From NCBI GenBank assembly GCA_016784445.1, contig JADHUR010000001.1, forward strand, positions 19,464-83,463: a stretch of 64,000 nt of DNA. Direction: 5' to 3'. The position numbers and the translations under genes are program-made. Under the pieces are notes generated by a model. The model was not told the DNA's origin and made no database searches. It worked only from the letters and a program-made list of their open reading frames with translations. The DNA comes from Patescibacteria group bacterium (GTDB lineage Bacteria > Patescibacteriota > Patescibacteriia > UBA1558). This document shows, one piece after another, positions 34,293 through 52,271 of this stretch (within the stretch, counting starts at the first letter, position 1; each line of letters opens with the position of its first letter).

Positions 34293-35876
34293 TTATATTA
34301 AGCTCGTACCAGTCATTTGGTCGGGCTTTTTTAATTTCATAATTTTCAATATTGTAGGAGCAACATCAGATAGAATACCAGTTGGTACTTGTCCTGCTAA
34401 ATTTTGAGGTGTTACACCCGGAATTATTGCCTTACCCTTTAACTCATTTGCTAGAATATATAATGGTACAGGATTTACTGAATGTTCTTTTACCATCTCC
34501 CCTGTTTGCAAATTGAATAACTCTTCTGCATTACCATGATCTGCTGTAATCATAGCTACCCCTTCGCTCTCAAGTACTGCATCTACAATTCTACCAACAC
34601 TTTCATCAATATATTCTATAGCCTCAATAGTTGCCTTAATATTTCCTGTATGTCCCACCATGTCTGCATTGGCAAAGTTTAAAACAATAAAGTCATACTT
34701 ATCTGCCTTAATCTCTTTAAGTACTGCTTCTGTTACTTTATCTGCACTCATTTTAGGCTCTTCATCATATGATGCTATTCTAGGTGATGCAATGAGTACT
34801 CTATCCTCTCCCTCATATTCATTTTCCTTACCACCATTAAAGAAAAATGTTACATGAGCATATTTCTCTGTTTCAGCAATATGTAATTGTTTAAGACCAG
34901 CCTGAGATATAACTTTAGCAAGCGGCTCTTCTATCGCAATTGGTGGGAATGCAACTTTGATTGGTAAATCCTTCTCATACTCTGTCATTGCTACAAAATA
35001 TATATTTGGAAAATACTCACGATCAATTACTAATTTATCAAAACTCGGTAATACAAATGCTTTTGTTAATTGTCTAACTCTATCTGCTCTATAATTAAAA
35101 CATATTATTGAATCTTTATCTTTAATAATGCCTTGAGATTTATCATTCTCAATTACAACAGGAATAAACTCTTCATCATATACGCCCTGTTCATATGAAG
35201 CCTTAATAGCATCGGCTGCTGTTTTAAATTTATTAATAGACTTTCCATTTACCATTGCATCATATGCCTTTGTAATTCTCTCCCAATGATTATCTCTATC
35301 CATTGCATAATATCTTCCAGAGATTGTTGCAATTTTACCGATGCCAATACTTGTAATTTTACTTTCCAGTTTAGCAATAAATTTTTCACCTGCATTATAT
35401 GATGTATCTCTACCATCTAATATTATATGTATATACACATTTTCTACTTCTTGTTGTTTAGCAACTTCAAGTAATGCATAAAGATGTTCATTATAGCTAT
35501 GTATTCCACCATCAGACAAAAGACCAATCATATGCAATGAACTATTATTATCCTTTGCATGTTTACAGGCAGCAATAAATTCTTCATTCTCATAAAATGA
35601 ATTATCTGCAATTGCTTTAGTAATGCGTGGCAGACTCTGATAAATGATAGTACCACTTCCAAGTGATAAATGACCTACCTCTGAGTTGCCCATTTCACCC
35701 CAAGACAGCCCCACAGACTCTCCAGACGCCTGTAATGTCACAACTGGGTATTGCAAGACATAGCCGTCCAAATTAGGCGTTTTAGCAAGTTCTATAGCAT
35801 TAGCTTTAGCAGCTGGTGCTGTACCCCATCCATCTAATATCATTAAGACAACTGGCTTCGGTCTATCTTCAAACAT
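34293..35876 (-). CDS. gpmI: 2,3-bisphosphoglycerate-independent phosphoglycerate mutase (iPGM), copy 1
   Basis: VVLMILDGWG, catalytic-Ser region GNSEVGHLSLGSG, LLSDGGIHS, ISGRYYAMDRDNHWERI, ADHGNAEE. Confidence 0.9.
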   Translation of the reverse strand: MFEDRPKPVVLMILDGWGTAPAAKANAIELAKTPNLDGYVLQYPVVTLQASGESVGLSWGEMGNSEVGHLSLGSGTIIYQSLPRITKAIADNSFYENEEFIAACKHAKDNNSSLHMIGLLSDGGIHSYNEHLYALLEVAKQQEVENVYIHIILDGRDTSYNAGEKFIAKLESKITSIGIGKIATISGRYYAMDRDNHWERITKAYDAMVNGKSINKFKTAADAIKASYEQGVYDEEFIPVVIENDKSQGIIKDKDSIICFNYRADRVRQLTKAFVLPSFDKLVIDREYFPNIYFVAMTEYEKDLPIKVAFPPIAIEEPLAKVISQAGLKQLHIAETEKYAHVTFFFNGGKENEYEGEDRVLIASPRIASYDEEPKMSADKVTEAVLKEIKADKYDFIVLNFANADMVGHTGNIKATIEAIEYIDESVGRIVDAVLESEGVAMITADHGNAEELFNLQTGEMVKEHSVNPVPLYILANELKGKAIIPGVTPQNLAGQVPTGILSDVAPTILKIMKLKKPDQMTGTSLI

Positions 35877-37428
35877 GTTTTTTTGTAATCAAAGAATTAG
35901 CTGTCATAAGTTTAGGTTTCTTTACATCAAGCATATCCAGTATTGTAGGGGCTACATTAGCTAAACTTCCTGTCTTTAATTTATATTTATGCTTATTTAC
36001 AATAATGAAAGGTACTACATTATCTGTATGTTCTGTATGCACTTCTCCTGTTTCTAAATTAATCATCTCTTCAGCATTTCCATGATCGGCAACAATAATT
36101 AAACTACCATTAGTCTTATCTACTGATGCCTGTATTTGACCAACGGCCCTATCTACAGCCTCTACTGCCTTAATACCAGCAAGTAAATTACCCGTATGAC
36201 CAATCATATCTGGATTTGGAAAGTTTACACATATAAAATCATACTGTTTTTCTTTAAGACTATTAACAATTATCTTCGTTAAATCTTTAATAGACATCTC
36301 AGGTCTCATAGCATAGGACTTAACTTTAGGAGATGGAACTTTAATACGGGCCTCACCATCTACTGGATCAGCATATCCACCATTAAAAAAGTATGTAACG
36401 TGTGCAAATTTTTCACTTTCTGAAATATATAATTGAGTATAATCTTTAAGTGCCATAGGTAATGTATCTTTTACATCTTCACTTGGATAGGCAACTAATA
36501 TTTCACCGAGATCTGGACCAAAATCTGTCATCGCAACAAATTTAATATTCTTAAACACTCTTTGCCTATGAAATGACTCTGGATTCATCTTGCCAAAATC
36601 TTTTTGAACAAAAGCTTTTACTAATTGTCTAGCCCTATCTGATCTTAAATTAAAGAAAAATACCGAATCATTTTCTTTAATAGTAACTATAGATTTTGCA
36701 TCTTTAGCAATAATTGTTGGCTTGATATATTCATCTGTCTCATTTCTATTATATGCTTGTAATATAGCTTCCTCTGGAGTACTAACAAGTCTACCAGTAC
36801 CTTTTGTTAAAAGATCATATGCTTTCTGAGTTCTTGTCCATGATTTATTCCTATCCATTGCATAAAATCTACCCATGATAGAAACAATCTTTTCTCCATT
36901 TTTGAAACCTTTCTTCACCTCATCAAGATATGTTAAAGCTGCATGCTGCGGAGCATCTCTACCATCTGTAAATAGATGAATATATACATTAGCAACATTG
37001 TGCTGCTTCATTAATTCTAATAATCTCAATAAATGGCCACGTTCTGCATGCGCTGATTCATGGCCAGATAATAATCCCATTAAATGGATAGCGGATTTAT
37101 TCTTCTTTGCATATTTAATTGCATCAATAAATGCAGGGTTTTTAAAGAACCTACCACTAGCAATGGCATCATTAATAATAACTGAATCTTGCTTTACAAT
37201 TCTTCCTGCTCCTAAATTTAAATGGCCAGCCTCTGAATTACCAAATTGATTACGAGGAAGGCCAACATATTTACCAGAAGCTTGCAAAGTTGTATGAGAA
37301 TAATTATCCCAAAACTTATCTATATTCGGTGTATTAGCTATTGCTATTGCATTACCTTTGGAGGGCTTGGCGAGTCCCCATCCATCTAATATTGCAAGAA
37401 CTATTGGTTTATATTCTTTATTTGTCAT
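35869..37428 (-). CDS. gpmI: iPGM paralog, copy 2 (divergent metal-site motif)
   Basis: IVLAILDGWG, GNSEAGHLNLGAG, MGRFYAMDRNKSWTRT and ADHGNAEE are conserved, but the SDGGVHSH box reads LLSGHESAHAERGH. Confidence 0.85.
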   Translation of the reverse strand: MTNKEYKPIVLAILDGWGLAKPSKGNAIAIANTPNIDKFWDNYSHTTLQASGKYVGLPRNQFGNSEAGHLNLGAGRIVKQDSVIINDAIASGRFFKNPAFIDAIKYAKKNKSAIHLMGLLSGHESAHAERGHLLRLLELMKQHNVANVYIHLFTDGRDAPQHAALTYLDEVKKGFKNGEKIVSIMGRFYAMDRNKSWTRTQKAYDLLTKGTGRLVSTPEEAILQAYNRNETDEYIKPTIIAKDAKSIVTIKENDSVFFFNLRSDRARQLVKAFVQKDFGKMNPESFHRQRVFKNIKFVAMTDFGPDLGEILVAYPSEDVKDTLPMALKDYTQLYISESEKFAHVTYFFNGGYADPVDGEARIKVPSPKVKSYAMRPEMSIKDLTKIIVNSLKEKQYDFICVNFPNPDMIGHTGNLLAGIKAVEAVDRAVGQIQASVDKTNGSLIIVADHGNAEEMINLETGEVHTEHTDNVVPFIIVNKHKYKLKTGSLANVAPTILDMLDVKKPKLMTANSLITKKHV

Positions 37429-38683
37429 TTAATTGATTATATATTTCTAAAAGCCTATTATATTTTACAACTCTTTCCCCTCTTGAAGTTGCTCCTGTTT
37501 TTATGTATTCAGCATTAACAGCTACTGCTAAATCTGCAATGAAATCATCTGTTGTTTCACCACTTCTATGTGAGATAGCAATCTTATATTCATTATCTTG
37601 TGCAAGTTTTATAGCTGCCATTGTCTCTGATACTGACCCAATTTGATTTACTTTAATAAGAATAGCATTAGCTACACTCTCATCTATACCCTTTTGTAAT
37701 CTTTTAACATTAGTTACAAAAAGATCATCTCCAATAAGTGGAATACCTTTAAACGTCTCATTTGCTGTCATCGTTTTCCAACCAGTCCAATCATCTTGAT
37801 CAAGTGGATCTTCAAGTGCAAGTATTGGATAATCTTTTACCCAAGACTCAAACATAGCTATCATATCTTCTGAAGAGGCTTTAATACCTTCTCCTTTTAA
37901 TTCATATAAGCCAGACTCTTTATTATAGAATTCTGATGAACCAGCATCCATTCCCATGTATATATCCATGCCAGGTTTATATCCTGCATCTTTAATTGCT
38001 TTAGCAATAGCTTCCCAAACCTCCTTGGCTGTATTTAATTGTGGTGCATAGCCACCTTCATCACCAACATTTGTAGAATGACCACCAGCTTTTAATTCAG
38101 TACCTAAAGTATGGAAAACCTCAACGCAAGATCTAAGAGCTTCTGGATAATCTTTAATACCAGCTGGAATAATCCAAAACTCCTGCCAATCTAAAACATT
38201 ATCTGCATGCTCTCCTCCATTTACAATATTTGAAAGTGGAGTTGGTAATAGATAATCCTTTTTATCTAATGAATATATATCTCTTAAATGTTCATATAAT
38301 GGTTTATTACTTGCTAGTGCCCCTACTCTAGCTGCTGCTAGTGACACTCCCAAAATTGCATTAGCTCCAAACTTACTCTTATTTTCTGTACCATCTGCTG
38401 CAATCATCATACTATCTAAATTCTGTAAATCATTTACATCTTGCCCAATAAGTAATTTAGCAATATCTTTATTAACATTAATAATAGCTTTTAATACGCC
38501 TTTACCACCAAATCTTTTCTTATCTCCATCTCTCAATTCTAAAGCTTCATGCACACCTGTTGAAGCACCGGAAGGAACGGAAGCTTTTGCCTTAAAGCCA
38601 CCTACCACACCTACAGTTACTTGAATTGTAGGATTACCTCTTGAATCTAATATCTCTATAGCCTCTATTGATTTAATTTTCAT
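37418..38683 (-). CDS. eno: enolase
   Basis: SRGNPTIQV ... GASTGVHEA ... SHRSGETTD. Confidence 0.95.
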   Translation of the reverse strand: MKIKSIEAIEILDSRGNPTIQVTVGVVGGFKAKASVPSGASTGVHEALELRDGDKKRFGGKGVLKAIINVNKDIAKLLIGQDVNDLQNLDSMMIAADGTENKSKFGANAILGVSLAAARVGALASNKPLYEHLRDIYSLDKKDYLLPTPLSNIVNGGEHADNVLDWQEFWIIPAGIKDYPEALRSCVEVFHTLGTELKAGGHSTNVGDEGGYAPQLNTAKEVWEAIAKAIKDAGYKPGMDIYMGMDAGSSEFYNKESGLYELKGEGIKASSEDMIAMFESWVKDYPILALEDPLDQDDWTGWKTMTANETFKGIPLIGDDLFVTNVKRLQKGIDESVANAILIKVNQIGSVSETMAAIKLAQDNEYKIAISHRSGETTDDFIADLAVAVNAEYIKTGATSRGERVVKYNRLLEIYNQLNDK

Positions 38684-38684: not shown

Positions 38685-39800
38685 TTATTTATTATTTAAT
38701 TTTTTTAATATTGGTAATTGCTTACTCTCTAAATATTGAAGCATTGCTCCCCCTCCAGTAGATATGAAATTATAGTATTTATGTAAATTCAAATGCTTAA
38801 TAATTGCTAATGTTTCGCCTCCACCTACAATTGTTTTTGCCTTAGCTGAAGCTATTGCCATAGCGACTGCATAACTTCCTTTTTCATAACCAACCCTTTC
38901 AAATACTCCCATTGGACCGTTCCAAATAATAGTCTTTGCTCCTTTTATTATATCCGAATAATACTCTATTGTAATTGGCCCAATGTCTAATATTTTATCA
39001 TAATTCTTAACTTCTGCCACAGGTTTAATTATTCTCTTATTCCTTGACTCAACAACCACATCTATTGGTAAAAGTATCTTTTTATTCAATAATTTCTGAC
39101 ACATATCTACCATTTCTGGCTCATATAATGATTTACCGATTGGTAAATCTAATGCTTTCAAAAAATTATTAGCAAGTGCACCACCTACTATTAAATAATC
39201 TACTTGTGGTAATAGTTTTTTAATTAGCTGGACTTTTGTAGATATCTTTGCACCGCCCATTACAGCAACGCCACCTTTAGATTTTCTTAAATCTAAATTC
39301 TGTAATTCATGTTCAAATCTATAGCCAATATATGTTGGTAAATAATCTGGTAAATAATATACTGATGAATCATTTCTATGACTTGATGCGAATGACTCAA
39401 ATACAAAATAATCTCCTAGGTCTGCCAATTCCTTAGCAAATTTTTTACTTCCCTTTTGTTCTTCCTTATTAAAACGAATATTCTCTAAGAGTATTAATTT
39501 CGCACCACTGTCTTCTACTTTCAAATAATCTGTTATAAACTCTACTTTCCGTTTTAGTAACTTCTCTAAACTATTTACAACTGGTTTTAGACTTAAAGAT
39601 CTATCTATTCCCTCGGGTCTTCCAAAATGAGATATTAAAACAACCTTTGCTTTTTGTTTAAGAAGATAATTAATTGTAGGTAATGCTGCCTCAATCTTAA
39701 AATCATCCAAAACTTTTCTACCTTTAAGAGGTACATTAAAATCTACACGTACAAGTACTGTCTTATCCTTTATATTTTTTAATGTTTTAAGTTTTTTCAT
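38685..39800 (-). CDS. pgk: phosphoglycerate kinase
   Basis: VLVRVDFNVPL ... the hinge and ATP-binding motifs; the start overlaps the upstream gene's stop (ATGA). Confidence 0.95.
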   Translation of the reverse strand: MKKLKTLKNIKDKTVLVRVDFNVPLKGRKVLDDFKIEAALPTINYLLKQKAKVVLISHFGRPEGIDRSLSLKPVVNSLEKLLKRKVEFITDYLKVEDSGAKLILLENIRFNKEEQKGSKKFAKELADLGDYFVFESFASSHRNDSSVYYLPDYLPTYIGYRFEHELQNLDLRKSKGGVAVMGGAKISTKVQLIKKLLPQVDYLIVGGALANNFLKALDLPIGKSLYEPEMVDMCQKLLNKKILLPIDVVVESRNKRIIKPVAEVKNYDKILDIGPITIEYYSDIIKGAKTIIWNGPMGVFERVGYEKGSYAVAMAIASAKAKTIVGGGETLAIIKHLNLHKYYNFISTGGGAMLQYLESKQLPILKKLNNK

Positions 39801-44315: not shown

Positions 44316-44519
44316 TTAGTTAAATAGTTTCATTAAATTATCTGCATCCTCTGTCGGAATAATTTGTAATACATAACCATTCTGAGCCAAGAAGAAATCT
44401 CCTATCTTAATATCCCCTTCTAAGACATCTGTTTTAAATTCCTTCTCTTCATCACTAATAACGCCAATAACAATATTGTCTTTAATGCTTTTTACTTTGT
44501 ATGGAATAGTCATGCACAT
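44316..44519 (-). CDS. hypC: [NiFe]-hydrogenase maturation chaperone HypC (start at the internal ATG, MCMTIP)
   Basis: The HypC family begins MC(L/I)x(I/V)P; the tracked ORF's 26-aa extension overlaps the upstream gene and is discounted. The 68-aa protein is ...VIGVISDEEKEFKTDVLEGDIKIGDFFLAQNGYVLQ. Confidence 0.7.
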   Translation of the reverse strand: MCMTIPYKVKSIKDNIVIGVISDEEKEFKTDVLEGDIKIGDFFLAQNGYVLQIIPTEDADNLMKLFN

Positions 44520-44780: not shown

Positions 44781-46031
44781 TTAATGTGTTGCGCAACTAA
44801 TACAAGGATCGTATGCGCGTATTAATAGTCTAATCTTTTGTCTTCTTTCTTTTGCTGTCATATCTTTAATATTTGGTAAATACATTGCTAAATCATCCTC
44901 AAGATTAAATAAAAATTGAGCTGTTGGAGTAATAATATTACAATCTTGAATAATTCCATCCTTGTCTAATTTATAATAATGGAATAATGTACCACGTGGT
45001 GCCTCCATGGCAGCTACTGCAAAACATTCCTTTACCCTATACTCTACCTGTCCTTCTTCCTTTAATTTTAAATCTTTCAATATCTTTTGTGATTCTTCCA
45101 ACATATGCACCAGCTCGACAGCTTGAGCTAGAATATTATAGAAAGAATTATATGTAGGTAATTTTACCCCAGATTCTTTTAATAGAGCTTTAGCTCTTGG
45201 ATTAAGTTGACTATGATTATTATTTAGCCTGGCAATAGCACCCACCATAAAAGACTTACCGGATAATTTAGCCTTCTTTACAGCTTCATACTGTTTTTTA
45301 ATCTCCGTTATCTTCTTACTAAATTTAGTACTAGATATTGTTTCTTCTTCTGAAGATTTAATATCTCCAGAATATATGCCATATTCCTTATCATTAAATA
45401 AACAAATATATTCTGTCTTTCTATTAAGTTCCGGATAATTTAATTTAATAAATAATTTAACAAGCTTTTCTGCTTTTTTAATTAAAGCTGGTAAACGATC
45501 ATTGATTTCATCTAAATCTTCTTGGGCTGGTAATATTTTAAACCCACCAACTTGTGAAGTAATGGGGTGAACAGTTCTACCACCAATTAAACGAATAAGG
45601 TCTGTTGCCCATCTACGAATATCCATTGCCATGTCCGCTTCCTTTGGATGTTTCTTTATTAATTGAAGGTCATTGAGTATTCCATAGAAATCGGGTAATG
45701 ATAAAAAGAATAAATGTAAACCATGACTATGTATTATTTGAGAATATTGCATTAACTTTCTTAAAGTCCTTGTTTGATCTGTTACTTTTACCTCTAATGC
45801 TTTTTCTAAGGACTCAATAGCTGTTAAATTATGTACAACCGGACAAATACCACAAATACGGGCAGTAATAATTGGAGCATCCATATAGTGACGACCAATG
45901 AGCATACCCTCAATAAGTCTAGCTCCTTCTTGTGTTTCAATTTTAGCTAATGCGACATTACCTTCTAAAATATGACCAACAAAACCAGCATGACCTTCCA
46001 TTTTTGCTAAATGATTTATTTGTATCTTCAT
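44781..46031 (-). CDS. [NiFe]-hydrogenase large (alpha) subunit, cytoplasmic group-3-type; ends exactly at the C-terminal His (no cleavable extension)
   Basis: L1 motif RICGICPVVH near the N-terminus and L2 motif DPCISCATH as the last residues; 416 aa. Confidence 0.9.
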   Translation of the reverse strand: MKIQINHLAKMEGHAGFVGHILEGNVALAKIETQEGARLIEGMLIGRHYMDAPIITARICGICPVVHNLTAIESLEKALEVKVTDQTRTLRKLMQYSQIIHSHGLHLFFLSLPDFYGILNDLQLIKKHPKEADMAMDIRRWATDLIRLIGGRTVHPITSQVGGFKILPAQEDLDEINDRLPALIKKAEKLVKLFIKLNYPELNRKTEYICLFNDKEYGIYSGDIKSSEEETISSTKFSKKITEIKKQYEAVKKAKLSGKSFMVGAIARLNNNHSQLNPRAKALLKESGVKLPTYNSFYNILAQAVELVHMLEESQKILKDLKLKEEGQVEYRVKECFAVAAMEAPRGTLFHYYKLDKDGIIQDCNIITPTAQFLFNLEDDLAMYLPNIKDMTAKERRQKIRLLIRAYDPCISCATH

Positions 46032-46780
46032 AGTTTTTCTTCTATATCATCTCTCAGGCCAAAGATTTCTATTATTCTATTCATTTTCTCTTGGCCGTGC
46101 TCTTTAATTAATTTTTTCATCATTATTTGTACTTGGGCACCATCAAATAGCCCTCTACAACCTTGACATGCCATTTTGCTCTTTAAACAAATTGCTTCAC
46201 AACCACCAAGTATTATTGGTCCAAGACAAGGTTCACCTTTTTGTAATAAACATTCATAACCTCTTGCTTGACATTCAAAACAAACTGGACGCTGTGGAAT
46301 ATTAACTCTCTCATCCCTCATTAATGCATATACCACTTTGTAAAACTCATCAGCATTAATTGGACAACCAGATATCTTAAAGTCTACCTTAACAATATTA
46401 TCTATCTCTTTAATGTCTGGATTCGCTACTGTAGACTTCTGTCCATAAATATATTCTTTAATCTTTTTCTTATCATGATAATTCTTAATCTCATGTACAC
46501 CACCCATAGCAGCACAATTACCAAGTGCAATTAAATACTTAGACTTCTCTCTAGCTTCTTTTAATGTCTTAACATTCTCTTTAGTAATTGGAGAACCCTC
46601 AATAAAACAAATATCATAATATGTATTATGATCAAACTCTTCTTCAAGTAATCTAAACTCTGCAAGATCTATTTGTTTTAAGAAATCTAGAAATTCTCTA
46701 CCGGTATCAAGTAATGCAAACTCACACCCTTCGCAGGATGTTAGACCAATAATTGCAATTTTTAACTTACGTTTCTGCAT
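46028..46780 (-). CDS. [NiFe]-hydrogenase small (delta) subunit with Fe-S clusters
   Basis: Proximal-cluster motif IIGLTSCEGCE; a C-terminal Cys-rich region CPINADEF...CFECQARGYECL...CLGPIILGGCEAICLKSKMACQGCRG. Confidence 0.85.
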   Translation of the reverse strand: MQKRKLKIAIIGLTSCEGCEFALLDTGREFLDFLKQIDLAEFRLLEEEFDHNTYYDICFIEGSPITKENVKTLKEAREKSKYLIALGNCAAMGGVHEIKNYHDKKKIKEYIYGQKSTVANPDIKEIDNIVKVDFKISGCPINADEFYKVVYALMRDERVNIPQRPVCFECQARGYECLLQKGEPCLGPIILGGCEAICLKSKMACQGCRGLFDGAQVQIMMKKLIKEHGQEKMNRIIEIFGLRDDIEEKL

Positions 46781-47254
46781 TTACATTAAGTTCTGCTTAA
46801 TTAAATCTACAATTTGTTCTGGATTATCTGTTGTAAAATAAAATTTCTTATTCTCAAGCTCTAGCAATACTCCCATATCATTTCCTGCAATATATCCCCA
46901 AGATCTATCCAATCTACCATATCTAATTCCATAACCCCAATAATTCTTAAATTCAAATTTCTTTATACTGACATTCTTTATATCCCCCTTATTAACTTTC
47001 TTTTTAAATATACCGAAACCAAATTGAACAAATTCAGTAGTGATTACAACTTTCAAGTTTTTAAAGAATATAAATAATAGAATAAAAATAACAGCCATTA
47101 TTAGAAATGCCATTCCATCTTCTTGCCTGAAAGCTGCAATGCCATATTCATAATAGTTGCTAACAAGTGACACAATCAAGACAAATGCAACAACAAGGAA
47201 TACTATTATTGCCATTATGCTTGAGTTTTGTTTTTCTTCGTAAATATTATTCAT
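46781..47254 (-). CDS. small membrane protein (2 TM plus a soluble C-domain)
   Basis: ORF overlapping its neighbours by 1 nt and embedded between the hydrogenase subunit genes. Confidence 0.35.
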   Translation of the reverse strand: MNNIYEEKQNSSIMAIIVFLVVAFVLIVSLVSNYYEYGIAAFRQEDGMAFLIMAVIFILLFIFFKNLKVVITTEFVQFGFGIFKKKVNKGDIKNVSIKKFEFKNYWGYGIRYGRLDRSWGYIAGNDMGVLLELENKKFYFTTDNPEQIVDLIKQNLM

Positions 47255-48039
47255 TAATTCGTAAATGTTATTTTATTAATCTTAGTATTATTTTCAACAG
47301 CTTGATCTATTTCTCTCTGACCAGCTACTTGTTTGTAATTATCCCCCCGTCTATTTTCTATTTCACTAATAATATTCATATAAACATTCTTTTTAAAAAT
47401 CTTCTCATCTGTATAATCTATTACTCTATCCTTAACTGTTTCTAATATATCTTTCCAATATTTATGATCTGCTTGTTTAAGTAAAATATCATCATCTGTT
47501 TTAGATTTCTTGTCTACTACTACTCCAAAATGTTGCCAAACAATGTTCCCCACAACGACATTCAAATTGTTTGGAATAATTACATTTCTGTACACTATAT
47601 TATCTCCTTCAAGCTCTGCAATAGTCGCTCCTTCACTTTCATATATTTTAATTATATTAGCTATAGACAAGGTATGAGCTAAAGCATAGCTAGCACCCTT
47701 CAACTTAATAATTTCATTATTCTCAATAGTGTTTAAATGATCAAGGGCAAAACATTTTATTACATCATCTCTTGAAAGGTATAGCTTTTTATGTTCCTGA
47801 GCATACTGCGCAAGGGTTGCTGGGGCGGCTGTTAATATATGTTTTGAAATATCTGCAAGTAATACAAATTCTTTATCTATATAATCTTCTAAATTAATAT
47901 CTATTAAACAGTCTGGATTTAGGAATAGATTAGAAATTATCCTTAGTCCATCTCCAGATACCTTAATTTTATCGAAATCTACAAAACTCAACCTCCTGGT
48001 CTTTTCAACAAGCTCTATCTGTTTCTTAGTAAACGCCAT
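47254..48039 (-). CDS. hypothetical soluble protein (261 aa)
   Basis: ORF with coupled starts and stops; no motif recognised. Confidence 0.4.
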   Translation of the reverse strand: MAFTKKQIELVEKTRRLSFVDFDKIKVSGDGLRIISNLFLNPDCLIDINLEDYIDKEFVLLADISKHILTAAPATLAQYAQEHKKLYLSRDDVIKCFALDHLNTIENNEIIKLKGASYALAHTLSIANIIKIYESEGATIAELEGDNIVYRNVIIPNNLNVVVGNIVWQHFGVVVDKKSKTDDDILLKQADHKYWKDILETVKDRVIDYTDEKIFKKNVYMNIISEIENRRGDNYKQVAGQREIDQAVENNTKINKITFTN

Positions 48040-48929
48040 TGTTTTATATTTAATGACTTGAGGCTATACATAATATACAAACCAAAGATAATAAATGCTA
48101 TTCCGATAAAGGCCATGCCTGACATACTCTTATCTAAAAATACCATTGTTAAAATAGCTGTAATTGGAGCGCCAAGTGCTAAGACAGAAGTTGCCTCAAC
48201 AGCACTTACATGTTTAAGTCCTGAATAAAAAGTTGTCACATAAGCAATAAGTAATACTGCGGTAATACCAACCCAACCCCATTGTTCCATGGATAAATTT
48301 GTTACTAAGCTAAACTTACCCGTAATAAGCAAAAATACCCAAATAAAAATACTACCAAAAAACATTCTAGAACCGGCTACAATATTTGCGGGTAAATCAT
48401 TTAATAGTTTTTTAGAAAGTAATATTTCAACAGACCACAATAATACTGAGCCAAAAACAAGAAGGTCTCCAATATTTAATGCCTGAGGTTTAATATTTAA
48501 AAATAGTATATTACCAATAAGTAATGAAATAATTCCCACCCAAACATATTTACTTGGCTTATTCTTTAAAAATACAACTGACATTAATGCTATTACTAAA
48601 AACATGCTCTTGTGAATGAAACCAGCTTTTACAGCTAATGTTAAACTTAAACCTTTAAAAAACATCAAGAACGGAATAGCGCCACCAATAAGTCCAATAA
48701 GTAATAACAATAGCCATTGTTTACCTTTGATCTCTTTTAAGGACTGTTTGTTTATAAGCAATAATGCTCCAACAAGGAATACTGCAACAACTGTATTTTT
48801 TAAACCTGCAAAAACATACGGATCACTCATTGCAATACCAAACTTGTTTACAAATATTGAAATACCTGAAATAAAAGCGGTAGCAAGTACTAATAGAAAA
48901 CCTTTTTTTGTTTTATCTTTCATTATCAT
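48015..48929 (-). CDS. EamA/DMT-superfamily transporter (10 TM)
   Basis: Two repeated five-TM halves, typical of drug/metabolite transporter permeases. Confidence 0.65.
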   Translation of the reverse strand: MIMKDKTKKGFLLVLATAFISGISIFVNKFGIAMSDPYVFAGLKNTVVAVFLVGALLLINKQSLKEIKGKQWLLLLLIGLIGGAIPFLMFFKGLSLTLAVKAGFIHKSMFLVIALMSVVFLKNKPSKYVWVGIISLLIGNILFLNIKPQALNIGDLLVFGSVLLWSVEILLSKKLLNDLPANIVAGSRMFFGSIFIWVFLLITGKFSLVTNLSMEQWGWVGITAVLLIAYVTTFYSGLKHVSAVEATSVLALGAPITAILTMVFLDKSMSGMAFIGIAFIIFGLYIMYSLKSLNIKQWRLLRNR

Positions 48930-49783
48930 ATTAAATCTGGATTATTTATTAAATCATTAACATTAAATACAGGCCCATCTTTGCATATATATACATCATT
49001 CACTGCACAATGCTGACAAACACCAATACCACAATACATTCTTCTTTCCAGTGAAAAATATATATCTTCATCTGCAAATCCTAATTCCTGTAATTTTTTT
49101 ATAACCGGCTTATACATTGCAGGCGGCCCCACCATAAATACCGTTGAATCTTTATCTATATTATCTCCATTTAAAAGTTGAGTAATTACCCCCTTAACTA
49201 CCTTAGCATTTGCAACTGCAGTTGCCCTTTTAAGTCTATCTACTGAAATACCTAGCCTTATATCATTATTAACCCAATTAGCCATCTCATCTTGATACAT
49301 TAAATACTCTATTTCATTACTACCACATAATACCTGTACTGTATTTTCTTTAAAATATTTAGAACTAATTATATGTTCAATCTCACCTCTTATAGGAGCT
49401 ACCCCAGAACCACCAGCAATTAAAATAATATTTGGTTTTGCAAGTTTATTTAAATTTGGCCAACCATTACCAAATGGCCCCCTAAATGTTAATATATCTC
49501 CGACTTTTGAATCTACTAATTTCTTAGTTAAAAAACCAACCTGCTTAACAGTAACTTGCATATATTTAGACGACTTGTCCGAAGGAGAGCAGATATCTAA
49601 AGCACATTCACCTGCTCCTATAATACCAACCATTGCAAATTGCCCCTGTATAAAAGCATACTTCTTTTGAACTTTAGAATCTTCAAATTGCAGAGTAAAT
49701 AAAGCTGCATCATCTGCCACTGCTTTTATCTTTACTATTTTAACTCTTTGTGGTAAATATGGATCAATCATTTTTCTTCTCAA
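48926..49783 (-). CDS. hydrogenase gamma subunit (FAD/NAD(P)-binding PyrK/AsrB-like reductase with C-terminal 2Fe-2S)
   Basis: FRGPFGNGW, IAGGSGVAPI (NAD-binding), and a C-terminal CGIGVCQHCAVNDVYICKDGPVF. Confidence 0.8.
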   Translation of the reverse strand: MRRKMIDPYLPQRVKIVKIKAVADDAALFTLQFEDSKVQKKYAFIQGQFAMVGIIGAGECALDICSPSDKSSKYMQVTVKQVGFLTKKLVDSKVGDILTFRGPFGNGWPNLNKLAKPNIILIAGGSGVAPIRGEIEHIISSKYFKENTVQVLCGSNEIEYLMYQDEMANWVNNDIRLGISVDRLKRATAVANAKVVKGVITQLLNGDNIDKDSTVFMVGPPAMYKPVIKKLQELGFADEDIYFSLERRMYCGIGVCQHCAVNDVYICKDGPVFNVNDLINNPDLI

Positions 49784-50759
49784 GCTTGTTTAATACTTCA
49801 ATTATATTTATTCCAACAGGACAAACTTTAAAACACCTCATACAACTAACACATCCTGGTACTTTATACTCTGCTGGTGTTCTACTAAATTTATGCTCAT
49901 ACCAAAAGAATAGTTTCTGTTTAACAGTATCTACAAATTTTTTACCGCCAGCCACTTGTGAAAACTCTGGATAAAAGCAATTACCCCAAACTCTTTTTTT
50001 AGAAACTGTATTGTCTGCACCAGCTTCATCTAATAGATCAAAACAAAAACATGTAGGACATGCTGTTGAACATTTACCACAAGCTGTACAAATCTTTGCA
50101 ATTTCATCCCAAACTGGATTATCTTCAGACCCCTTAACAATGGGCATTAACTTTAACATTCTTTGATCCGGACCCTCTTCTTGTATAAGACCAGCAAATT
50201 GAATATTTTCAAAGACATCAATGCCAGCACCTCTTAATACTTTTCTACCTTTAGCTGAACCAGAATATACTTTAAACTCACCTTCTTTATTTTTTTCTAA
50301 GAAAATATCGAAAGGAATATGTTCAAGTACATTCTCCACCTTATCCATTGAGAATATCTTATATTCCTCATAATCTGCTGGAGCGCCAGATGAAATACCA
50401 ACAACTAAACCATTTTCTCTTTTTGCTAAATAATATGGATCATTTGTAAACACTAAATCAAAAAGACCAAGTGCCTTTAAATCTAAAACATTCATGCCAT
50501 ATGCCGCCTTACCTTTTACTTTACTTAAATCTGGTTTAATTAATTTATCTTTCTTCCAAGAAAAAAGCTCTTCTTGGTCTGGCAAGAAAAGCTGCTTAAA
50601 AGTATTATCTGGAATACGACTAGAATAGTCTATATTATCAATATTATTTACACCCTTTACAATTAGTTCATCCTTAGAAAGAACTGGTGCATAAATATCG
50701 TATTGTTTAGCAATATATATTGCTAATTTATCTATCTCATTTTTTAGCATAAGTAGCAT
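49764..50759 (-). CDS. hydrogenase beta subunit (AsrA/HydB-like, two [4Fe-4S] ferredoxin motifs)
   Basis: CTACGKCSTACPTCFC and CVSCMRCFKVCPVG. Confidence 0.8.
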   Translation of the reverse strand: MLLMLKNEIDKLAIYIAKQYDIYAPVLSKDELIVKGVNNIDNIDYSSRIPDNTFKQLFLPDQEELFSWKKDKLIKPDLSKVKGKAAYGMNVLDLKALGLFDLVFTNDPYYLAKRENGLVVGISSGAPADYEEYKIFSMDKVENVLEHIPFDIFLEKNKEGEFKVYSGSAKGRKVLRGAGIDVFENIQFAGLIQEEGPDQRMLKLMPIVKGSEDNPVWDEIAKICTACGKCSTACPTCFCFDLLDEAGADNTVSKKRVWGNCFYPEFSQVAGGKKFVDTVKQKLFFWYEHKFSRTPAEYKVPGCVSCMRCFKVCPVGINIIEVLNKLEKKND

Positions 50760-50790
50760 TATTATACTAAAAAATGCTTATATTGTAAAT

Positions 50791-51357
50791 TTAATCTGAT
50801 TGCAAGAATTTCTGATAATCCAAGTCATTTCTAATAATTTCTTGAACTATATGCCCTCTCAACCAATTAGCCTTTGTTTTACCAGAAACAGAAGTCTTCC
50901 ATCTTAAATATCTTTCAATTCTTGGAGTAATTCGCCAAGTAAACTTAACAGATGGCGTGTCCCATCTAGAATCACCATTCTCAATTAAGTCTAAAAACTC
51001 CGACACCTTTGTCTTAATATTACAATCATTATAGTGTTTAACAATTAAAAACTTAGAAACATCTTTATTATTCTTTATAAATAACAATTCATCGGGCAGT
51101 GGTTGTCCCTTTTCAAGTAAATACAATATAGGACGCTTTTGAGAAATAGCTAAGGCAATTAAGTATCCCGCATCCTGATTATTCTCTCCTCCAGCTATAA
51201 TAAGCCCATCAAGTCTTGAAAAAGATATATTATTAGATATATTACTCTTGTCATTCTGAGTAAAAACAATTACGCCAAGATCAGACAAAACTCTATCGAT
51301 ATCAAATATCTTAGATTGAGAATTATTATTAATATTTGAACTTAAGAATAATTTCAT
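50791..51357 (-). CDS. hypothetical protein, possibly NDT/SLOG-like Rossmannoid fold
   Basis: LDGLIIAGGENNQDAGYLIALAISQKRPILYL loosely resembles the deoxyribosyltransferase motif but has no Glu at the catalytic position; a weak call. Confidence 0.3.
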   Translation of the reverse strand: MKLFLSSNINNNSQSKIFDIDRVLSDLGVIVFTQNDKSNISNNISFSRLDGLIIAGGENNQDAGYLIALAISQKRPILYLLEKGQPLPDELLFIKNNKDVSKFLIVKHYNDCNIKTKVSEFLDLIENGDSRWDTPSVKFTWRITPRIERYLRWKTSVSGKTKANWLRGHIVQEIIRNDLDYQKFLQSD

Positions 51358-52271
51358 TGTTTTATAGTAAATATCTTTTTAAATTCCATAGTAGACTTAG
51401 ACTGTGCCAAACACCACATCGTTCTAATTATCATCATCTCCCAAGACATTAGTGATGTAATAATATAATTACTAGGTAGTGGATTTTCTCTTACTATCCC
51501 AAGTCTGTTATATATTATAATTGGTTTATTCCTAAAGTTTTCTTTAAGCCATAAAATATCATTATCCAGAAGTCCGTCTGTATGAATACTTTTAATTATT
51601 AAAGCTTTACTCTTTTTTAAAACAGCTTTATGTTTATCCCAAGCAAAACCAGGGTGTAAATAAAATACAGATAAATTATTATTAAACTTATTTATAAACT
51701 CAACATCTCTATTTTTCTTCTTTGGCTTGGCAAGTAATTCTAAACTAAAATCTACTGTTGCAATATATTCTCCTGTTAAGCTATCAAATGAATTTAAATG
51801 TGAGACACTTACCTTTCTAGCAAGAGAAGCCTGTATGGCTTTCTGTCCATAGACTAACATCACGTCACTAATATTACTGTTTATAAGCTGCAAGGCATTT
51901 ATTAAATTAGTCTTTAATGATAAATCAGATAATTTTTTAAACTTAAAACCACCGCCTGAAAGTAATGCGGTGGTAAATACTATTGGTTTATAATTTTTAA
52001 TAAAGGCTGTATCTGTAGCTACTGCTGAGTATATTAAATTATCTCCCTTAGCAACAATCACAAACCCATCATATCTATCATAATTACTATATATTGTATC
52101 ATTTATAGCAAGCCAAGACTCCAATTGAGAACTGCCTGTTTTAATATGTAATGGTAATGTTACTATCTCAGCTAGAAGGTCTAGTTCGGGCATTTTAGAG
52201 GCTATTAAATCAGCCTGCTGCAGGCTATTTCTCATATCTAAATAGATTATTAATACCCTATTCTTAGCCAT
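51354..52271 (-). CDS. L-asparaginase/glutaminase-fold protein lacking both catalytic threonines (probable pseudo-enzyme)
   Basis: YDRYDGFVIVAKGDNLIYSAVATD...NYKPIVFTTALLS aligns with AnsA [24 protein letters not shown]...NLGKPVIVTGSQ. The N-terminal TGGTIGM box is replaced by YLDMRNS and HGTDTM by AKGDNL. Confidence 0.55.
   Translation of the reverse strand: MAKNRVLIIYLDMRNSLQQADLIASKMPELDLLAEIVTLPLHIKTGSSQLESWLAINDTIYSNYDRYDGFVIVAKGDNLIYSAVATDTAFIKNYKPIVFTTALLSGGGFKFKKLSDLSLKTNLINALQLINSNISDVMLVYGQKAIQASLARKVSVSHLNSFDSLTGEYIATVDFSLELLAKPKKKNRDVEFINKFNNNLSVFYLHPGFAWDKHKAVLKKSKALIIKSIHTDGLLDNDILWLKENFRNKPIIIYNRLGIVRENPLPSNYIITSLMSWEMMIIRTMWCLAQSKSTMEFKKIFTIKQ

What the first reader, a model, noticed from the sequence alone, without database searches (positions are those of the whole stretch)
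34293..52271. An 18-kb single-strand gene train fusing a group-3b-type [NiFe] hydrogenase, Hyp chaperones and lower glycolysis
Seen in the sequence, sixteen consecutive minus-strand genes with overlapping or at most 32-nt gaps. In transcription order they are:
- the asparaginase-fold pseudo-enzyme
- a 188-aa protein
- hydrogenase beta subunit (HydB-like)
- hydrogenase gamma subunit (HydG-like)
- DMT transporter
- a 261-aa unknown protein
- a 157-aa membrane protein
- hydrogenase small subunit
- hydrogenase large subunit
- zinc-less HypA-like gene
- hypC
- the repeat giant
- pgk
- eno
- iPGM copy 2
- iPGM copy 1

Established knowledge: cytoplasmic bidirectional group-3b hydrogenases (alpha/beta/gamma/delta) couple NAD(P)H to H2 and serve as electron sinks in fermenters.

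Inference: hard-wiring this hydrogenase to the ATP-yielding steps of glycolysis in one transcription unit suggests co-regulation of redox disposal with substrate-level phosphorylation. That arrangement is economical for a minimal-genome fermenter.
Basis: partly seen in the sequence, partly recalled or inferred. Interest (0 to 1): 0.65.

Follow-up and report, generated by a model that had tools for sequence, protein, structure and literature searches.

The report
Hydrogenase genes embedded in glycolysis operon
A tiny-genome (Patescibacteria/CPR) bacterium carries an intact NAD(P)-linked hydrogen-making enzyme packed head-to-tail with sugar-breakdown genes. That pairing recurs across this bacterial radiation but almost nowhere else, and the enzyme comes with an unusually stripped-down assembly kit.

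Summary
Sixteen intact minus-strand genes occupy 34293-52271, and the largest gap between them is 40 nt.

**Classification.** All four hydrogenase subunits best match Pyrococcus sulfhydrogenase I (group 3b). The enzyme belongs to the CPR-specific 'hyd1' clade already in the literature.

**Not one 16-gene unit.** The train is a composite:
- The asparaginase-like gene and the 188-aa gene form an independent two-gene module, with their own promoter and an operator-like repeat.
- The 1505-aa repeat protein is a lineage-specific insertion.
- An invariant TTTACA-N17-TATAAT promoter lies immediately upstream of hydB.

**What is conserved.** The core is hydB-hydG-(EamA-p261)-small-large-short HypA-(HypC)-pgk-eno-iPGM-iPGM.
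- Glycolysis genes flank the hydrogenase in 18 of 23 CPR hyd1 loci, against 2 of 61 non-CPR group 3b loci.
- In some genomes gap or tpi-fba sit directly upstream of hydB.

**Clade-wide oddities.**
- HypA lacks its zinc domain.
- The large subunit has no C-terminal extension for a protease to cleave.
- p261 is an unknown accessory with an OB fold for which HypC is among the closest matches.
- No hypB/D/E/F lie in the window.

**Interpretation.** A redox valve co-expressed with glycolysis is plausible but inferred. Only PGK yields ATP, GAPDH is not in the window, and the direction of H2 flux is unknown.

**Novelty.** The enzyme is known. I did not find the conserved glycolysis linkage or the minimal maturation set described in the searchable literature.

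The parts
52385..52406 (-). Terminator-like hairpin plus T-run that closes the upstream M19 peptidase gene and marks the 5' boundary of the train
   Evidence: AACCCTTTATATTAAAAGGGTT + TTTATTTT. Analogous hairpins occupy the same position in L008 and L009. Sequence read.
52338..52366 (-). Promoter-like site P1 for asnL-p188: TTGACA, 17 nt, TAAGTT
   Evidence: The TTGACA is invariant in window, L007, L008 and L009. Coordinates. The -10 element is weak. No transcription start site has been measured.
52303..52327 (-). Operator-like direct repeat: two GCCGTCG copies, 18 nt start to start, in the asnL leader
   Evidence: These are the only two copies in 64 kb (expected 0.09). Sequence and spacing are conserved in L007, L008, L009 and L014. 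The same core lies in reverse orientation, also 18 nt apart, upstream of asnL in L095. No Rfam match.
51354..52271 (-). Asparaginase-fold protein (305 aa) lacking the catalytic motifs
   Evidence: Pfam Asparaginase N-terminal domain, 64 bits. 'AKGDNL' replaces 'HGTDT', and the N-terminal TGGT motif has no counterpart in the alignment. Always paired with p188, including away from hydrogenases.
50791..51357 (-). p188: CPR-only protein, a DNPH1/nucleoside-deoxyribosyltransferase-like domain plus a C-terminal ribbon-helix-helix-like tail; candidate regulator
   Evidence: 80 homologues, all from CPR where a name is given. AF2 model pLDDT 79.6. Foldseek 4fyi E = 1e-5 for residues 1-128. The ribbon-helix-helix reading of residues 138-188 is my inference from the conserved KFTxRITPRIERYL...SKADxLR pattern.
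50761..50789 (-). Promoter P2: TTTACA-N17-TATAAT directly upstream of hydB
   Evidence: Best match in the region, 11 of 12. Invariant in window, L007, L008 and L009, while the flanking coding DNA diverges. The conserved hydB ATG lies 10 nt after the -10 element, so the transcript would be nearly leaderless.
49764..50750 (-). hydB: beta subunit, two [4Fe-4S] clusters, AsrA-like
   Evidence: Pfam Fer4_22. Best PDB hit is P. furiosus SHI beta, 9nez_B, 88 bits. NCBIfam ShyB/HydB.
48926..49771 (-). hydG: gamma subunit, FAD/NAD(P)-binding plus [2Fe-2S], AsrB-like
   Evidence: Pfam FAD_binding_6, NAD_binding_1 and DHODB_Fe-S_bind. Best PDB hit is SHI gamma, 9nez_C, 152 bits.
48015..48929 (-). EamA/DMT permease, a conserved accessory of CPR hyd1 clusters
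   Evidence: Pfam EamA, 127 bits. In the same slot in L008, L009, L011, L019, L020, L027, L028, L096 and L097.
47254..48039 (-). p261: CPR-only hydrogenase-cluster accessory; helical domains around an OB barrel for which HypC is among the closest matches; invariant Cys/His/Asp
   Evidence: 68 homologues, no Pfam match. Two distant members lie after EamA inside hyd clusters. AF2 model pLDDT 93.6. HypC is among the top OB-fold hits. Invariant C44, C96, D100, H101, H122 and H170. It occupies the slot that DUF6390 fills in other lineages, but is not detectably homologous.
46781..47254 (-). p157: small membrane protein, patchily conserved in the cluster
   Evidence: Homologues in L007, L011 and L020; absent from L008 and L009. 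No Pfam match.
46028..46780 (-). hydD: hydrogenase small (delta) subunit, 250 aa, no Tat signal
   Evidence: Pfam Oxidored_q6. Best PDB hit is SHI delta, 131 bits, against MvhG at 94 bits. The N-terminus MQKRKLKIAIIG has no twin-arginine motif.
44781..46031 (-). hydA: [NiFe] large (alpha) subunit, 416 aa, ending at the L2 histidine
   Evidence: Best PDB hits are T. kodakarensis HyhL (225 bits) and P. furiosus SHI alpha (223 bits), against MvhA 168, HoxH 128 and FrhA 118. RICGICPVVH and DPCISCATH-stop. The extension is 0 aa in every CPR hyd1 locus.
44521..44775 (-). Short HypA (84 aa): nickel-binding domain only, N-terminal MHD, no cysteines
   Evidence: Profile match to TkHypA residues 1-66, E = 1.9e-8. 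M1-H2-D3 invariant in 17 CPR sequences. 65 cluster representatives, almost all 74-95 aa. Follows the large subunit in most CPR hyd1 loci.
44316..44519 (-). hypC (67 aa, N-terminal Met-Cys)
   Evidence: Pfam HupF_HypC, 39.6 bits. NCBIfam TIGR00074 scores 34.7 bits, below its 48-bit cut-off.
39797..44314 (-). 1505-aa repeat protein: about 23 helical repeats of 28 aa plus a C-terminal region of about 780 aa with no match; a lineage-specific insertion
   Evidence: An orthologue is present only in L007 (1340 aa). It is absent in L008, L009 and L014, where hypC abuts pgk.
38685..39800 (-). pgk: phosphoglycerate kinase
   Evidence: Pfam PGK, 393 bits.
37418..38683 (-). eno: enolase
   Evidence: Pfam Enolase_N and Enolase_C.
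35869..37428 (-). gpmI copy 2: cofactor-independent phosphoglycerate mutase, the more divergent copy
   Evidence: TIGR01307, 581 bits against a 330.65-bit cut-off. Catalytic and metal residues are kept relative to 1EJJ.
34293..35876 (-). gpmI copy 1: cofactor-independent phosphoglycerate mutase
   Evidence: TIGR01307, 638 bits. Catalytic residues kept. The tandem pair is conserved in L007, L008, L009, L012, L015, L017 and L020.

Best explanation
**What the region is.** This is a compact, intact gene array in a Komeilibacteria-like Patescibacteria genome. Its conserved core is a cytosolic four-subunit group 3b [NiFe]-hydrogenase of the CPR 'hyd1' clade.
- HydB and HydG form the NAD(P)-linked diaphorase.
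- HydD and HydA form the hydrogenase proper.
- Clade-specific accessory genes accompany them: an EamA permease, p261, p157, a zinc-domain-less HypA and HypC.
- pgk-eno-gpmI-gpmI follow directly.

**Proposed working (inferred).**
- The hydrogenase and the triose-phosphate-to-PEP enzymes are expressed together.
- Transcription would start at a conserved sigma-70-type promoter immediately upstream of hydB, with possible read-through from the upstream asnL-p188 module.
- Translation would be largely coupled through stop/start overlaps.
- In an organism without a respiratory chain, the NAD(P)H made by GAPDH would be re-oxidised by proton reduction to H2, or by polysulfide reduction to H2S. That keeps glycolytic ATP formation running.

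**What is not part of the unit.** The asparaginase-like/p188 pair and the giant repeat protein are lineage-specific neighbours, not part of the conserved unit.

**Shown:** gene content, classification, conserved synteny, conserved promoter motifs, intact cofactor motifs.

**Inferred:** co-transcription, physiological direction, and any coupling to GAPDH.
For: **Classification**
- all four subunits best match P. furiosus SHI or T. kodakarensis Hyh.
- NCBIfam sulfhydrogenase models are the top hit for the alpha, beta and delta subunits; for gamma a 'cytochrome-c3 hydrogenase subunit gamma' model ranks first and the sulfhydrogenase model second.
- the literature already defines CPR hyd1.

**Synteny**
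- layout A is (gap or tpi-fba)-hydBG-...-hydDA-hypA-pgk-eno-gpmI. It appears in the window and in L007-9, L011, L012, L014, L015, L017, L019 and L020.
- Layout B is tpi-fba-hypCDE(F)-hydDA-desulfoferrodoxin-hypA-gap, complete in L013. L016, L018, L021, L022, L024, L025 and L026 show parts of it.
- Searches confirm the linkage independently through p261.
- 18 of 23 CPR hyd1 loci against 2 of 61 non-CPR loci: Fisher odds ratio 106, p = 6e-12.
- Accessory genes between the conserved ones turn over, while the hydrogenase-to-glycolysis adjacency persists at about 50% large-subunit identity.

**Compactness**
- 15 tight junctions, against a background of 57.5% tight junctions.

**Promoter**
- invariant TTTACA-N17-TATAAT.

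**Intactness**
- L1 and L2 motifs are invariant. The Fe-S cysteine motifs are present.
Against: - There are no transcript data.
- Promoter and terminator consensus matches are not enriched over shuffled sequence.
- GAPDH, the step that actually makes NADH, is not in the window.
- H2 evolution from NAD(P)H is thermodynamically uphill unless H2 is kept very low (established knowledge). Characterised Thermococcales 3b enzymes are thought to work mainly in H2 uptake for NADPH supply.
- The synteny statistic is not corrected for shared ancestry among CPR loci.
- Three CPR hyd1 loci with full flanks (L010, L028, L030) lack the linkage.
- hypD/E/F are not in the window, so an active enzyme cannot be assumed from this sequence alone.
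Confidence: 0.6

Rival explanations
1. The complex and its operon linkage are the same, but the flux runs the other way. The hydrogenase takes up environmental or host-derived H2 to make NAD(P)H. That NAD(P)H feeds anabolism, or the reductive (gluconeogenic) direction of GAPDH and PGK.
For: - Published views on Parcubacteria 3b enzymes list H2 uptake for NADPH as an option.
- The thermodynamics favour uptake (established knowledge).
- pgk, eno and gpmI are all reversible enzymes.
- Layout B places desulfoferrodoxin (superoxide reductase), which needs reductant, between the large subunit and hypA.
Against: - CPR bacteria are generally inferred to be fermenters with few biosynthetic pathways that would consume NADPH.
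- Nothing in the window indicates gluconeogenic demand.
Confidence: 0.2
2. The adjacency is historical rather than functional. An ancestral gene order has been frozen in small, rarely rearranged genomes, or the block was transferred as a whole. The hydrogenase and glycolysis genes are regulated and used independently.
For: - All CPR loci are related.
- Identities of the large subunit and of the PGK, ENO and iPGM proteins fall in parallel, as expected for co-inheritance.
- Tight packing is common in this genome.
- L008 has 122-174-nt gaps and a terminator-like hairpin around the large-subunit gene.
Against: - Many unrelated genes have been inserted, lost or swapped inside and around the cluster without breaking the link. 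Examples are EamA, DUF6390/p261, PAP2, PSD, Ldh_2, IVP, GIY-YIG and the giant protein.
- Two different layouts both pair the hydrogenase with glycolysis genes.
- Two DPANN archaeal loci show the same association (L033, L038).
Confidence: 0.15
3. The enzyme acts mainly as a sulfhydrogenase, that is an NAD(P)H:polysulfide or S0 reductase. It would dispose of glycolytic electrons as H2S rather than H2.
For: - The beta and gamma subunits are AsrA/AsrB-like.
- P. furiosus SHI has this activity in vitro (established knowledge; cited).
- Papers on CPR bacteria from sulfide springs propose it.
Against: - The physiological relevance of S0 reduction by SHI is doubted even in Pyrococcus (my knowledge).
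- There are no sulfur-handling genes in the window.
Confidence: 0.1
4. The hydrogenase is a non-functional relic, because the maturation machinery (HypB/D/E/F and the protease) is missing.
For: - No hypB/D/E/F or protease gene lies in the 64-kb window.
- None lies within 10 kb in any layout-A locus.
Against: - All 16 ORFs are intact.
- Every Ni-Fe and Fe-S ligand is invariant across species at 50-85% identity.
- hypA and hypC are retained next to the enzyme. Layout-B relatives and L010 carry hypCDEF.
- The rest of the genome was not visible.
Confidence: 0.05

Closest known systems
Pyrococcus furiosus sulfhydrogenase I (HydBGDA) and Thermococcus kodakarensis Hyh: group 3b [NiFe]-hydrogenases
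   Same: - The same four subunit types, each the best PDB match.
- Same L1 and L2 motifs.
- Cytosolic, with no Tat signal.
- Beta and gamma subunits are AsrA/AsrB-like.
   Different: - Roughly 30-35% identity, by my reading of the printed alignment.
- The genes are not contiguous: three accessory genes split hydBG from hydDA.
- The large subunit lacks the C-terminal extension that is cleaved in HyhL and SHI alpha.
- HypA lacks the zinc domain present in TkHypA.
- The cluster is embedded in glycolysis genes.
CPR 'hyd1' group 3b hydrogenases (Jaffe et al. 2020, PMC7304191)
   Same: - CPR-specific clade.
- Small subunit of about 250 aa.
- Beta and gamma subunits present but 'not immediately upstream' of the small subunit.
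- A hypC-like family nearby.
   Different: The text of that paper does not report:
- the glycolysis linkage;
- the short HypA;
- the missing C-terminal extension;
- the EamA-p261/DUF6390 accessories.

I could not see its figures or supplements.
Bacterial central glycolytic gene operons (for example Bacillus subtilis cggR-gapA-pgk-tpiA-pgm-eno)
   Same: - Co-directional gap/pgk/tpi/gpmI/eno genes.
- In L017, L019 and L020, gap or tpi-fba lie upstream and pgk-eno-gpmI downstream of the hydrogenase. The whole therefore resembles a gap operon with a hydrogenase inserted.
   Different: - A complete hydrogenase cluster lies in the middle.
- No CggR homologue was identified.
- In the window the upstream half (gap, tpi) is replaced by asnL-p188.
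Mycobacterium smegmatis Hyh (Hyd3), a group 3b hydrogenase used as a fermentative redox valve in hypoxia
   Same: Proposed role: a 3b enzyme re-oxidises NAD(P)H by evolving H2 when no respiratory acceptor is available. The reference (Berney et al. 2014) appears in the reference list of PMC10811913; the content is from my knowledge.
   Different: - It is regulated by DosR and is not linked to glycolysis genes.
- It has a full Hyp set.
- Non-CPR actinobacterial 3b loci here show contiguous hydBGDA, and three of them (L049, L050, L054) have hypFDE downstream.

Membership tests
Group 3b [NiFe]-hydrogenase (NAD(P)-coupled, sulfhydrogenase type) | The large subunit is most similar to group 3b references rather than to 3a, 3c, 3d or groups 1, 2 and 4. 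| tested here: met
   HyhL 225 bits and SHI alpha 223 bits, against MvhA (3c) 168, HoxH (3d) 128, FrhA (3a) 118 and group 1 at or below 102. ShyA and HydA models rank first. No HydDB classifier or tree was run.
Group 3b [NiFe]-hydrogenase (NAD(P)-coupled, sulfhydrogenase type) | Ni-Fe ligand motifs L1 (RxCGxCxxxH) and L2 (DPCxxCxxH) are intact. | tested here: met
   RICGICPVVH and DPCISCATH. Both are invariant in 19 CPR sequences.
Group 3b [NiFe]-hydrogenase (NAD(P)-coupled, sulfhydrogenase type) | Heterotetramer: alpha and delta subunits, plus a beta subunit (2x[4Fe-4S], AsrA-like) and a gamma subunit (FAD/NAD(P) plus [2Fe-2S], AsrB-like). | tested here: met
   All four genes are present, and each best matches the corresponding SHI subunit. 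Physical assembly was not tested.
Group 3b [NiFe]-hydrogenase (NAD(P)-coupled, sulfhydrogenase type) | Reversible NAD(P)H-linked H2 evolution or uptake (biochemical activity). | not testable with these tools
   Needs an enzyme assay.
CPR 'hyd1' subclade (Jaffe et al. 2020) | CPR origin, full-length (~250 aa) small subunit, and beta and gamma genes on the same strand nearby. | tested here: met
   The source is named as a Patescibacteria group bacterium. The small subunit is 250 aa. hydB and hydG lie about 2.1-4 kb upstream on the same strand. Placement in their tree was not reproduced.
HypA nickel metallochaperone | N-terminal Met-His-Glu nickel-binding motif and the nickel-domain fold. | tested here: inconclusive
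   MHD replaces MHE and is invariant in 17 sequences. The profile matches TkHypA residues 1-66 at E = 1.9e-8. Pfam (25.5 against 28.9 bits) and NCBIfam (34 against 146 bits) scores are below their cut-offs.
HypA nickel metallochaperone | Zinc domain with two CxxC pairs. | tested here: not met
   The window protein has no cysteine, and no conserved Cys appears in the family. The family is 74-95 aa long, against 110-140 aa for canonical HypA. It is therefore not a canonical HypA but a nickel-domain-only relative.
Canonical [NiFe] maturation pathway (HypA-F plus endopeptidase) | HypB, HypD, HypE, HypF and a C-terminal-specific protease are present. | tested here: inconclusive
   None lies in the 64-kb window (tblastn; Pfam). 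The rest of the genome was not available. The protease substrate, the C-terminal extension, is absent.
Single operon (one transcription unit of 16 genes) | No internal promoters or terminators, and one transcript. | tested here: not met
   A conserved internal promoter motif lies upstream of hydB. The asnL-p188 module is separable. From hydB to gpmI-1 no junction exceeds 5 nt, which is compatible with one 14-gene unit. Transcripts cannot be tested here.

The most novel reading that the evidence does not exclude
CPR hyd1 hydrogenases may be assembled by a reduced, non-canonical maturation route.
- Nickel would be inserted by a zinc-domain-less HypA, without HypB.
- No proteolytic finishing step would be needed, because the large subunit ends at the L2 histidine.
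- In layout-A genomes such as this one, the Fe(CN)2CO step would be served or assisted by clade-specific proteins instead of, or in addition to, HypD/E/F.
  - Candidates are p261 or DUF6390, together with the EamA permease. p261 has an OB barrel for which HypC is among the closest matches, and both families have invariant Cys/His residues.
  - In relatives such as L012, a HypC-HydE-like radical SAM fusion is another candidate.
- The whole set would be hard-wired into the glycolytic operon as the cell's only NAD(P)H sink.
Probability: 0.15. Interest if true: 0.85.

Novelty: new variant of a known kind. Interest (0 to 1): 0.55.

Why it matters
CPR bacteria make up a large share of bacterial diversity. 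They are thought to live by fermentation with almost no redox machinery.

**Metabolism.** A hydrogenase physically nested in the glycolytic operon across many CPR lineages, and in some DPANN archaea, would identify H2 (or H2S) formation as the built-in partner of glycolysis in these episymbionts. It would also point to interspecies hydrogen transfer as part of their dependence on hosts or neighbours.

**Hydrogenase biochemistry.** The clade offers a naturally minimal system:
- an 84-aa HypA with only the nickel-binding domain;
- a large subunit that needs no protease;
- unknown accessory proteins, p261 and DUF6390.

These can be tested directly by heterologous co-expression, and they could simplify the engineering of [NiFe]-hydrogenases.

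Tried and rejected
1. **p261 as a diverged DUF6390.** Both occupy the same slot after EamA. Rejected as homologues: hhalign probability 2% and no Pfam or NCBIfam hit. A shared OB motif resembling HypC remains possible.
2. **The GCCGTCG pair as an RNA leader or riboswitch.** There is no Rfam hit. In L095 the motif is on the opposite strand with the same 18-nt spacing. That argues for a DNA operator rather than an RNA element.
3. **Intragenic hairpin plus U-run about 160 nt into hydB (50593-50566) as a conserved attenuator.** It is kept only in the window, L007 and L008. It is explained by codons for FLPxxEELF and is lost in more distant loci.
4. **asnL-p188 as hydrogenase-specific regulators.** The pair is found far from hydrogenases in L094 and L095.
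5. **Generic promoter and terminator scans as operon evidence.** Counts do not exceed shuffled controls. Only motifs conserved across taxa were used.
6. **The giant repeat protein as part of the functional unit.** It is absent from sister genomes. It has no Pfam or PDB match.
7. **The afdb50 structure library.** It was unavailable, so p261 could not be compared with DUF6390 models.
8. **Literature searches for a prior description of the hydrogenase-glycolysis linkage**. None found it. Figures, supplements and subscription papers (for example Wrighton et al. 2012) were not readable.

Full report
**1. Observation**

Three starts are better placed downstream of the mechanical ORF starts:
- hydB at the ATG at 50750, which is conserved in four taxa.
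- The HypA-like gene at 44775 (MHD...).
- hypC at 44519 (MCMTIP...). Independent gene calls on other contigs agree.

With these starts, 13 of the 15 junctions run from -25 to +1 nt. One junction is +5 nt, and the p188-hydB spacer is 40 nt.

Almost the whole 64-kb window is minus-strand (56 of 71 ORFs), so strand alone means little. The run length does mean something. Outside the train only 57.5% of same-strand junctions are <=35 nt, and the longest other run has 5 genes.

The identical locus was assembled at least six times from different samples. The large subunit is 100% identical to an NCBI protein from a 'Patescibacteria group bacterium'. Flanking synteny matches Komeilibacteria MAGs: DUF212, BacA, CAP and PCMT downstream, and DnaJ upstream.

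**2. The hydrogenase**

Each of the four subunits has a P. furiosus sulfhydrogenase I or T. kodakarensis Hyh subunit as its best solved-structure match:

| Subunit | Best 3b match (bits) | Next group (bits) |
|---|---|---|
| alpha | 225 / 223 | MvhA 168, HoxH 128, FrhA 118 |
| beta | 88 | formate dehydrogenase beta 21.9 (only other hit) |
| gamma | 152 | dihydroorotate dehydrogenase B PyrK 55.4 |
| delta | 131 | MvhG 94 |

NCBIfam ranks the sulfhydrogenase Shy/Hyd models first for alpha, beta and delta. For gamma a 'cytochrome-c3 hydrogenase subunit gamma' model ranks first and ShyC second. All scores are far below the equivalog cut-offs, so this is a distant member.

The L1 and L2 nickel-iron motifs and the Fe-S cysteine patterns are intact and invariant across 19 CPR homologues. 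The small subunit is 250 aa and has no twin-arginine signal.

This matches the CPR-specific 'hyd1' clade of Jaffe et al. 2020. That paper already noted that the beta and gamma genes are often not directly upstream of the small subunit, and that a hypC-like family lies nearby. The enzyme as such is therefore known.

**3. The train is a composite**

(a) **asnL-p188 is a separate module.**
- The p188 family is CPR-only, with 80 proteins.
- In Buchananbacteria-like genomes the same pair lies far from any hydrogenase.
- The asparaginase-fold protein lacks the catalytic threonine motifs.
- p188 models as a DNPH1/nucleoside-deoxyribosyltransferase-like domain. I read its conserved C-terminal beta-helix-helix as ribbon-helix-helix-like.
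- The asnL leader carries an invariant TTGACA and then two GCCGTCG copies exactly 18 nt apart. These are the only two copies in 64 kb.
- In L095 the same core appears on the other strand with the same spacing. That suggests a DNA operator, possibly for p188.

(b) **The 40-nt p188-hydB spacer carries a promoter motif.** It contains TTTACA-N17-TATAAT, unchanged in the window, L007, L008 and L009, although the flanking proteins are only 52-79% identical. The conserved hydB ATG lies 10 nt after the -10 element, so this transcript would be nearly leaderless.

(c) **The 1505-aa protein is an insertion.**
- It has about 23 helical repeats of 28 aa plus an unmatched C-terminal region of about 780 aa.
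- It is present only here and in the 80%-identity relative L007.
- In L008, L009 and L014 hypC directly abuts pgk.

(d) **From hydB to gpmI-1 nothing separates the genes by more than 5 nt.** Most genes lack a Shine-Dalgarno-like sequence. Co-transcription and translational coupling of these 14 genes is the simplest reading, but it is untested.

**4. The conserved linkage to glycolysis**

I collected loci in three ways:
- from exact-protein look-ups of progressively more distant large subunits;
- from 80 GTDB species-representative loci;
- independently, through p261.

A tblastn survey gave the following:

| Set of loci | With a glycolysis gene within 10 kb |
|---|---|
| CPR hyd1 (large subunit >=44% identical to the window) | 18 of 23 |
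| Non-CPR group 3b | 2 of 61 |

- In the CPR loci the glycolysis gene is on the same strand.
- Two of the five CPR exceptions are truncated contigs.
- Both non-CPR cases are DPANN-like archaea: L033 (Woesearchaeota) and L038 (labelled only 'archaeon').
- Fisher odds ratio 106, p = 6e-12, not corrected for phylogeny.
- Four of the loci treated as CPR are labelled only 'bacterium' and one is labelled 'Bdellovibrionales'. I assigned them by large-subunit similarity and cluster features.

Two layouts recur:
- **Layout A** (this window): (gap or tpi-fba)-hydB-hydG-(hypC)-(EamA-p261/DUF6390-p157)-small-large-short hypA-pgk-eno-gpmI-gpmI.
- **Layout B** (mostly in genomes labelled Moraniibacteriota): tpi-fba-hypC-hypD-hypE-hypF-small-large-desulfoferrodoxin-short hypA-gap. 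L013 has the complete order; the other layout-B loci show parts of it.

In L017, L019 and L020 the hydrogenase sits between the upper and lower halves of a glycolytic gene string.

Unrelated genes have been inserted or swapped within the cluster without breaking the adjacency. Examples are PAP2, PSD, Ldh_2, 23S-IVP, GIY-YIG and the giant protein.

I found no description of this linkage in the searchable literature. Figures and supplements were not visible.

**5. Maturation genes**

- **Short HypA.** The HypA-like protein is 84 aa, starts with MHD and has no cysteine. Seventeen CPR orthologues share an invariant M-H-D and lack the zinc-binding CxxC pairs.
  - Their profile matches only the nickel domain (residues 1-66) of T. 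kodakarensis HypA.
  - A search of 1.84 billion cluster representatives returned 65 relatives, almost all 74-95 aa.
- **No C-terminal extension.** All 23 CPR hyd1 large subunits stop exactly at the L2 histidine. Most non-CPR 3b enzymes surveyed carry a 5-14-residue extension; eight of the 60 that could be read do not. No endopeptidase step is therefore expected.
- **Missing Hyp genes.** No hypB/D/E/F, protease or nickel transporter gene lies in the window, nor within 10 kb in any layout-A locus. The rest of the genome could not be examined.
- **p261.**
  - It is a CPR-only family of 68 proteins, always found after EamA in hydrogenase clusters.
  - It has invariant Cys, His and Asp residues.
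  - A confident model (pLDDT 93.6) has no global PDB match.
  - Other lineages carry DUF6390 in the same slot. It is not detectably homologous to p261.

**6. Mechanism and rivals**

**Best-supported reading (confidence about 0.6).** An NAD(P)-linked hydrogenase is co-expressed with the triose-phosphate-to-PEP enzymes. It serves as the redox outlet for GAPDH in a cell without respiration.

**Caveats.**
- Only PGK is ATP-yielding.
- GAPDH is not in the window.
- H2 evolution from NAD(P)H needs a low H2 partial pressure.
- Thermococcales 3b enzymes are thought to work mostly in uptake.

**Rivals.** These are H2 uptake for NAD(P)H supply, sulfhydrogenase activity, frozen ancestral synteny with no functional meaning, and a non-functional relic. 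The last is unlikely, given the invariant ligands.

**7. Verdict**

- The group 3b call is supported.
- 'One 16-gene transcription unit' is not supported as stated.
- The idea of a hydrogenase wired to glycolysis is strengthened by comparative evidence, but it remains an inference.
- The object is a member of a known enzyme clade.
- I did not find the conserved glycolytic embedding or the reduced maturation set described, and both deserve follow-up.

Noticed in passing
L012:5175-6455; also L034:12407-13603, L031:15580-16782 and L040:12164-13273: A 426-aa fusion of HypC (residues 1-67) to a radical SAM enzyme lies inside or just downstream of group 3b hydrogenase clusters. The radical SAM part passes the NCBIfam equivalog cut-off for the [FeFe]-hydrogenase maturase HydE (257 against 254.6 bits). 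It occurs in one CPR locus and three non-CPR phyla. None of these loci has hypD/E/F within 10 kb.
   Followed up: partly
window 52303-52327 (minus strand); L095:9024-9062: Two GCCGTCG copies lie 18 nt apart in the leader of the asparaginase-like gene. They are the only copies in 64 kb and are conserved in four taxa. In L095 the motif is on the opposite strand with the same spacing. It looks like an operator, possibly for the adjacent p188 protein.
   Followed up: partly
window 50791-51357 (p188) and 51354-52271 (asparaginase-like): This is a CPR-wide two-gene module. It pairs a catalytically dead asparaginase fold with a protein that joins a DNPH1/nucleoside-deoxyribosyltransferase-like domain to a ribbon-helix-helix-like tail. 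It may be a small-molecule-sensing regulator pair.
   Followed up: partly
window 34293-37428: The two iPGM genes are tandem paralogues, 44% identical. Both keep all catalytic and metal-binding residues, and both pass the TIGR01307 cut-off. The tandem pair is conserved in seven other CPR loci, so the duplication is old. Copy 2 has SGHESAH where the reference has SDGGVHS.
   Followed up: partly
window 39797-44314: The 1505-aa protein has about 23 helical repeats of 28 aa (residues ~75-730). Its C-terminal region of about 780 aa contains a CCMPFGSG motif and has no Pfam or PDB sequence match. It is found only here and in L007.
   Followed up: partly
L011, L015, L017, L019 (two copies), L020, L027 and L028, between hypC/EamA and the small-subunit gene: DUF6390 (PF19927) proteins with invariant Cys and His residues (consensus motifs CGP, PHHSFHV, CRIxWG) are a recurrent accessory of CPR hyd1 clusters. 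In L019 the C-terminal part of one gives a weak BLAST hit to HypC.
   Followed up: partly
L033 (Woesearchaeota) and L038 (archaeon): These two DPANN-like archaeal group 3b loci also have glycolysis genes next to the hydrogenase. In L038 PGK lies directly upstream of hydB. In L033 FBA, PGK and a bacterial-type GAPDH lie 2-6 kb downstream on the other strand.
   Followed up: no
L013, L016, L018, L022, L023 and L025, between the large-subunit gene and hypA or gap: A desulfoferrodoxin (superoxide reductase) gene is inserted directly after the hydrogenase large-subunit gene in layout-B clusters. This hints that the hydrogenase may also supply reductant for oxygen detoxification.
   Followed up: no
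window 50566-50593 (minus strand): A terminator-like hairpin plus U-run lies about 160 nt inside hydB. It is also present in L007 and L008 with one compensatory pair, but is lost in more distant loci. It is probably a by-product of the FLPxxEELF codons.
   Followed up: yes
L096:10073-11044 and L097:10989-11927: An Ldh_2-family (malate/L-lactate dehydrogenase type 2) gene is inserted between the small- and large-subunit genes in two CPR hyd1 clusters. It is another NAD(P)H-linked enzyme inside the cluster.
   Followed up: no
window 5423-5842: A stand-alone nucleoside 2-deoxyribosyltransferase-family protein (Pfam PF05014) lies next to a NUDIX hydrolase gene. It has the same fold class as the p188 N-terminal domain.
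   Followed up: no
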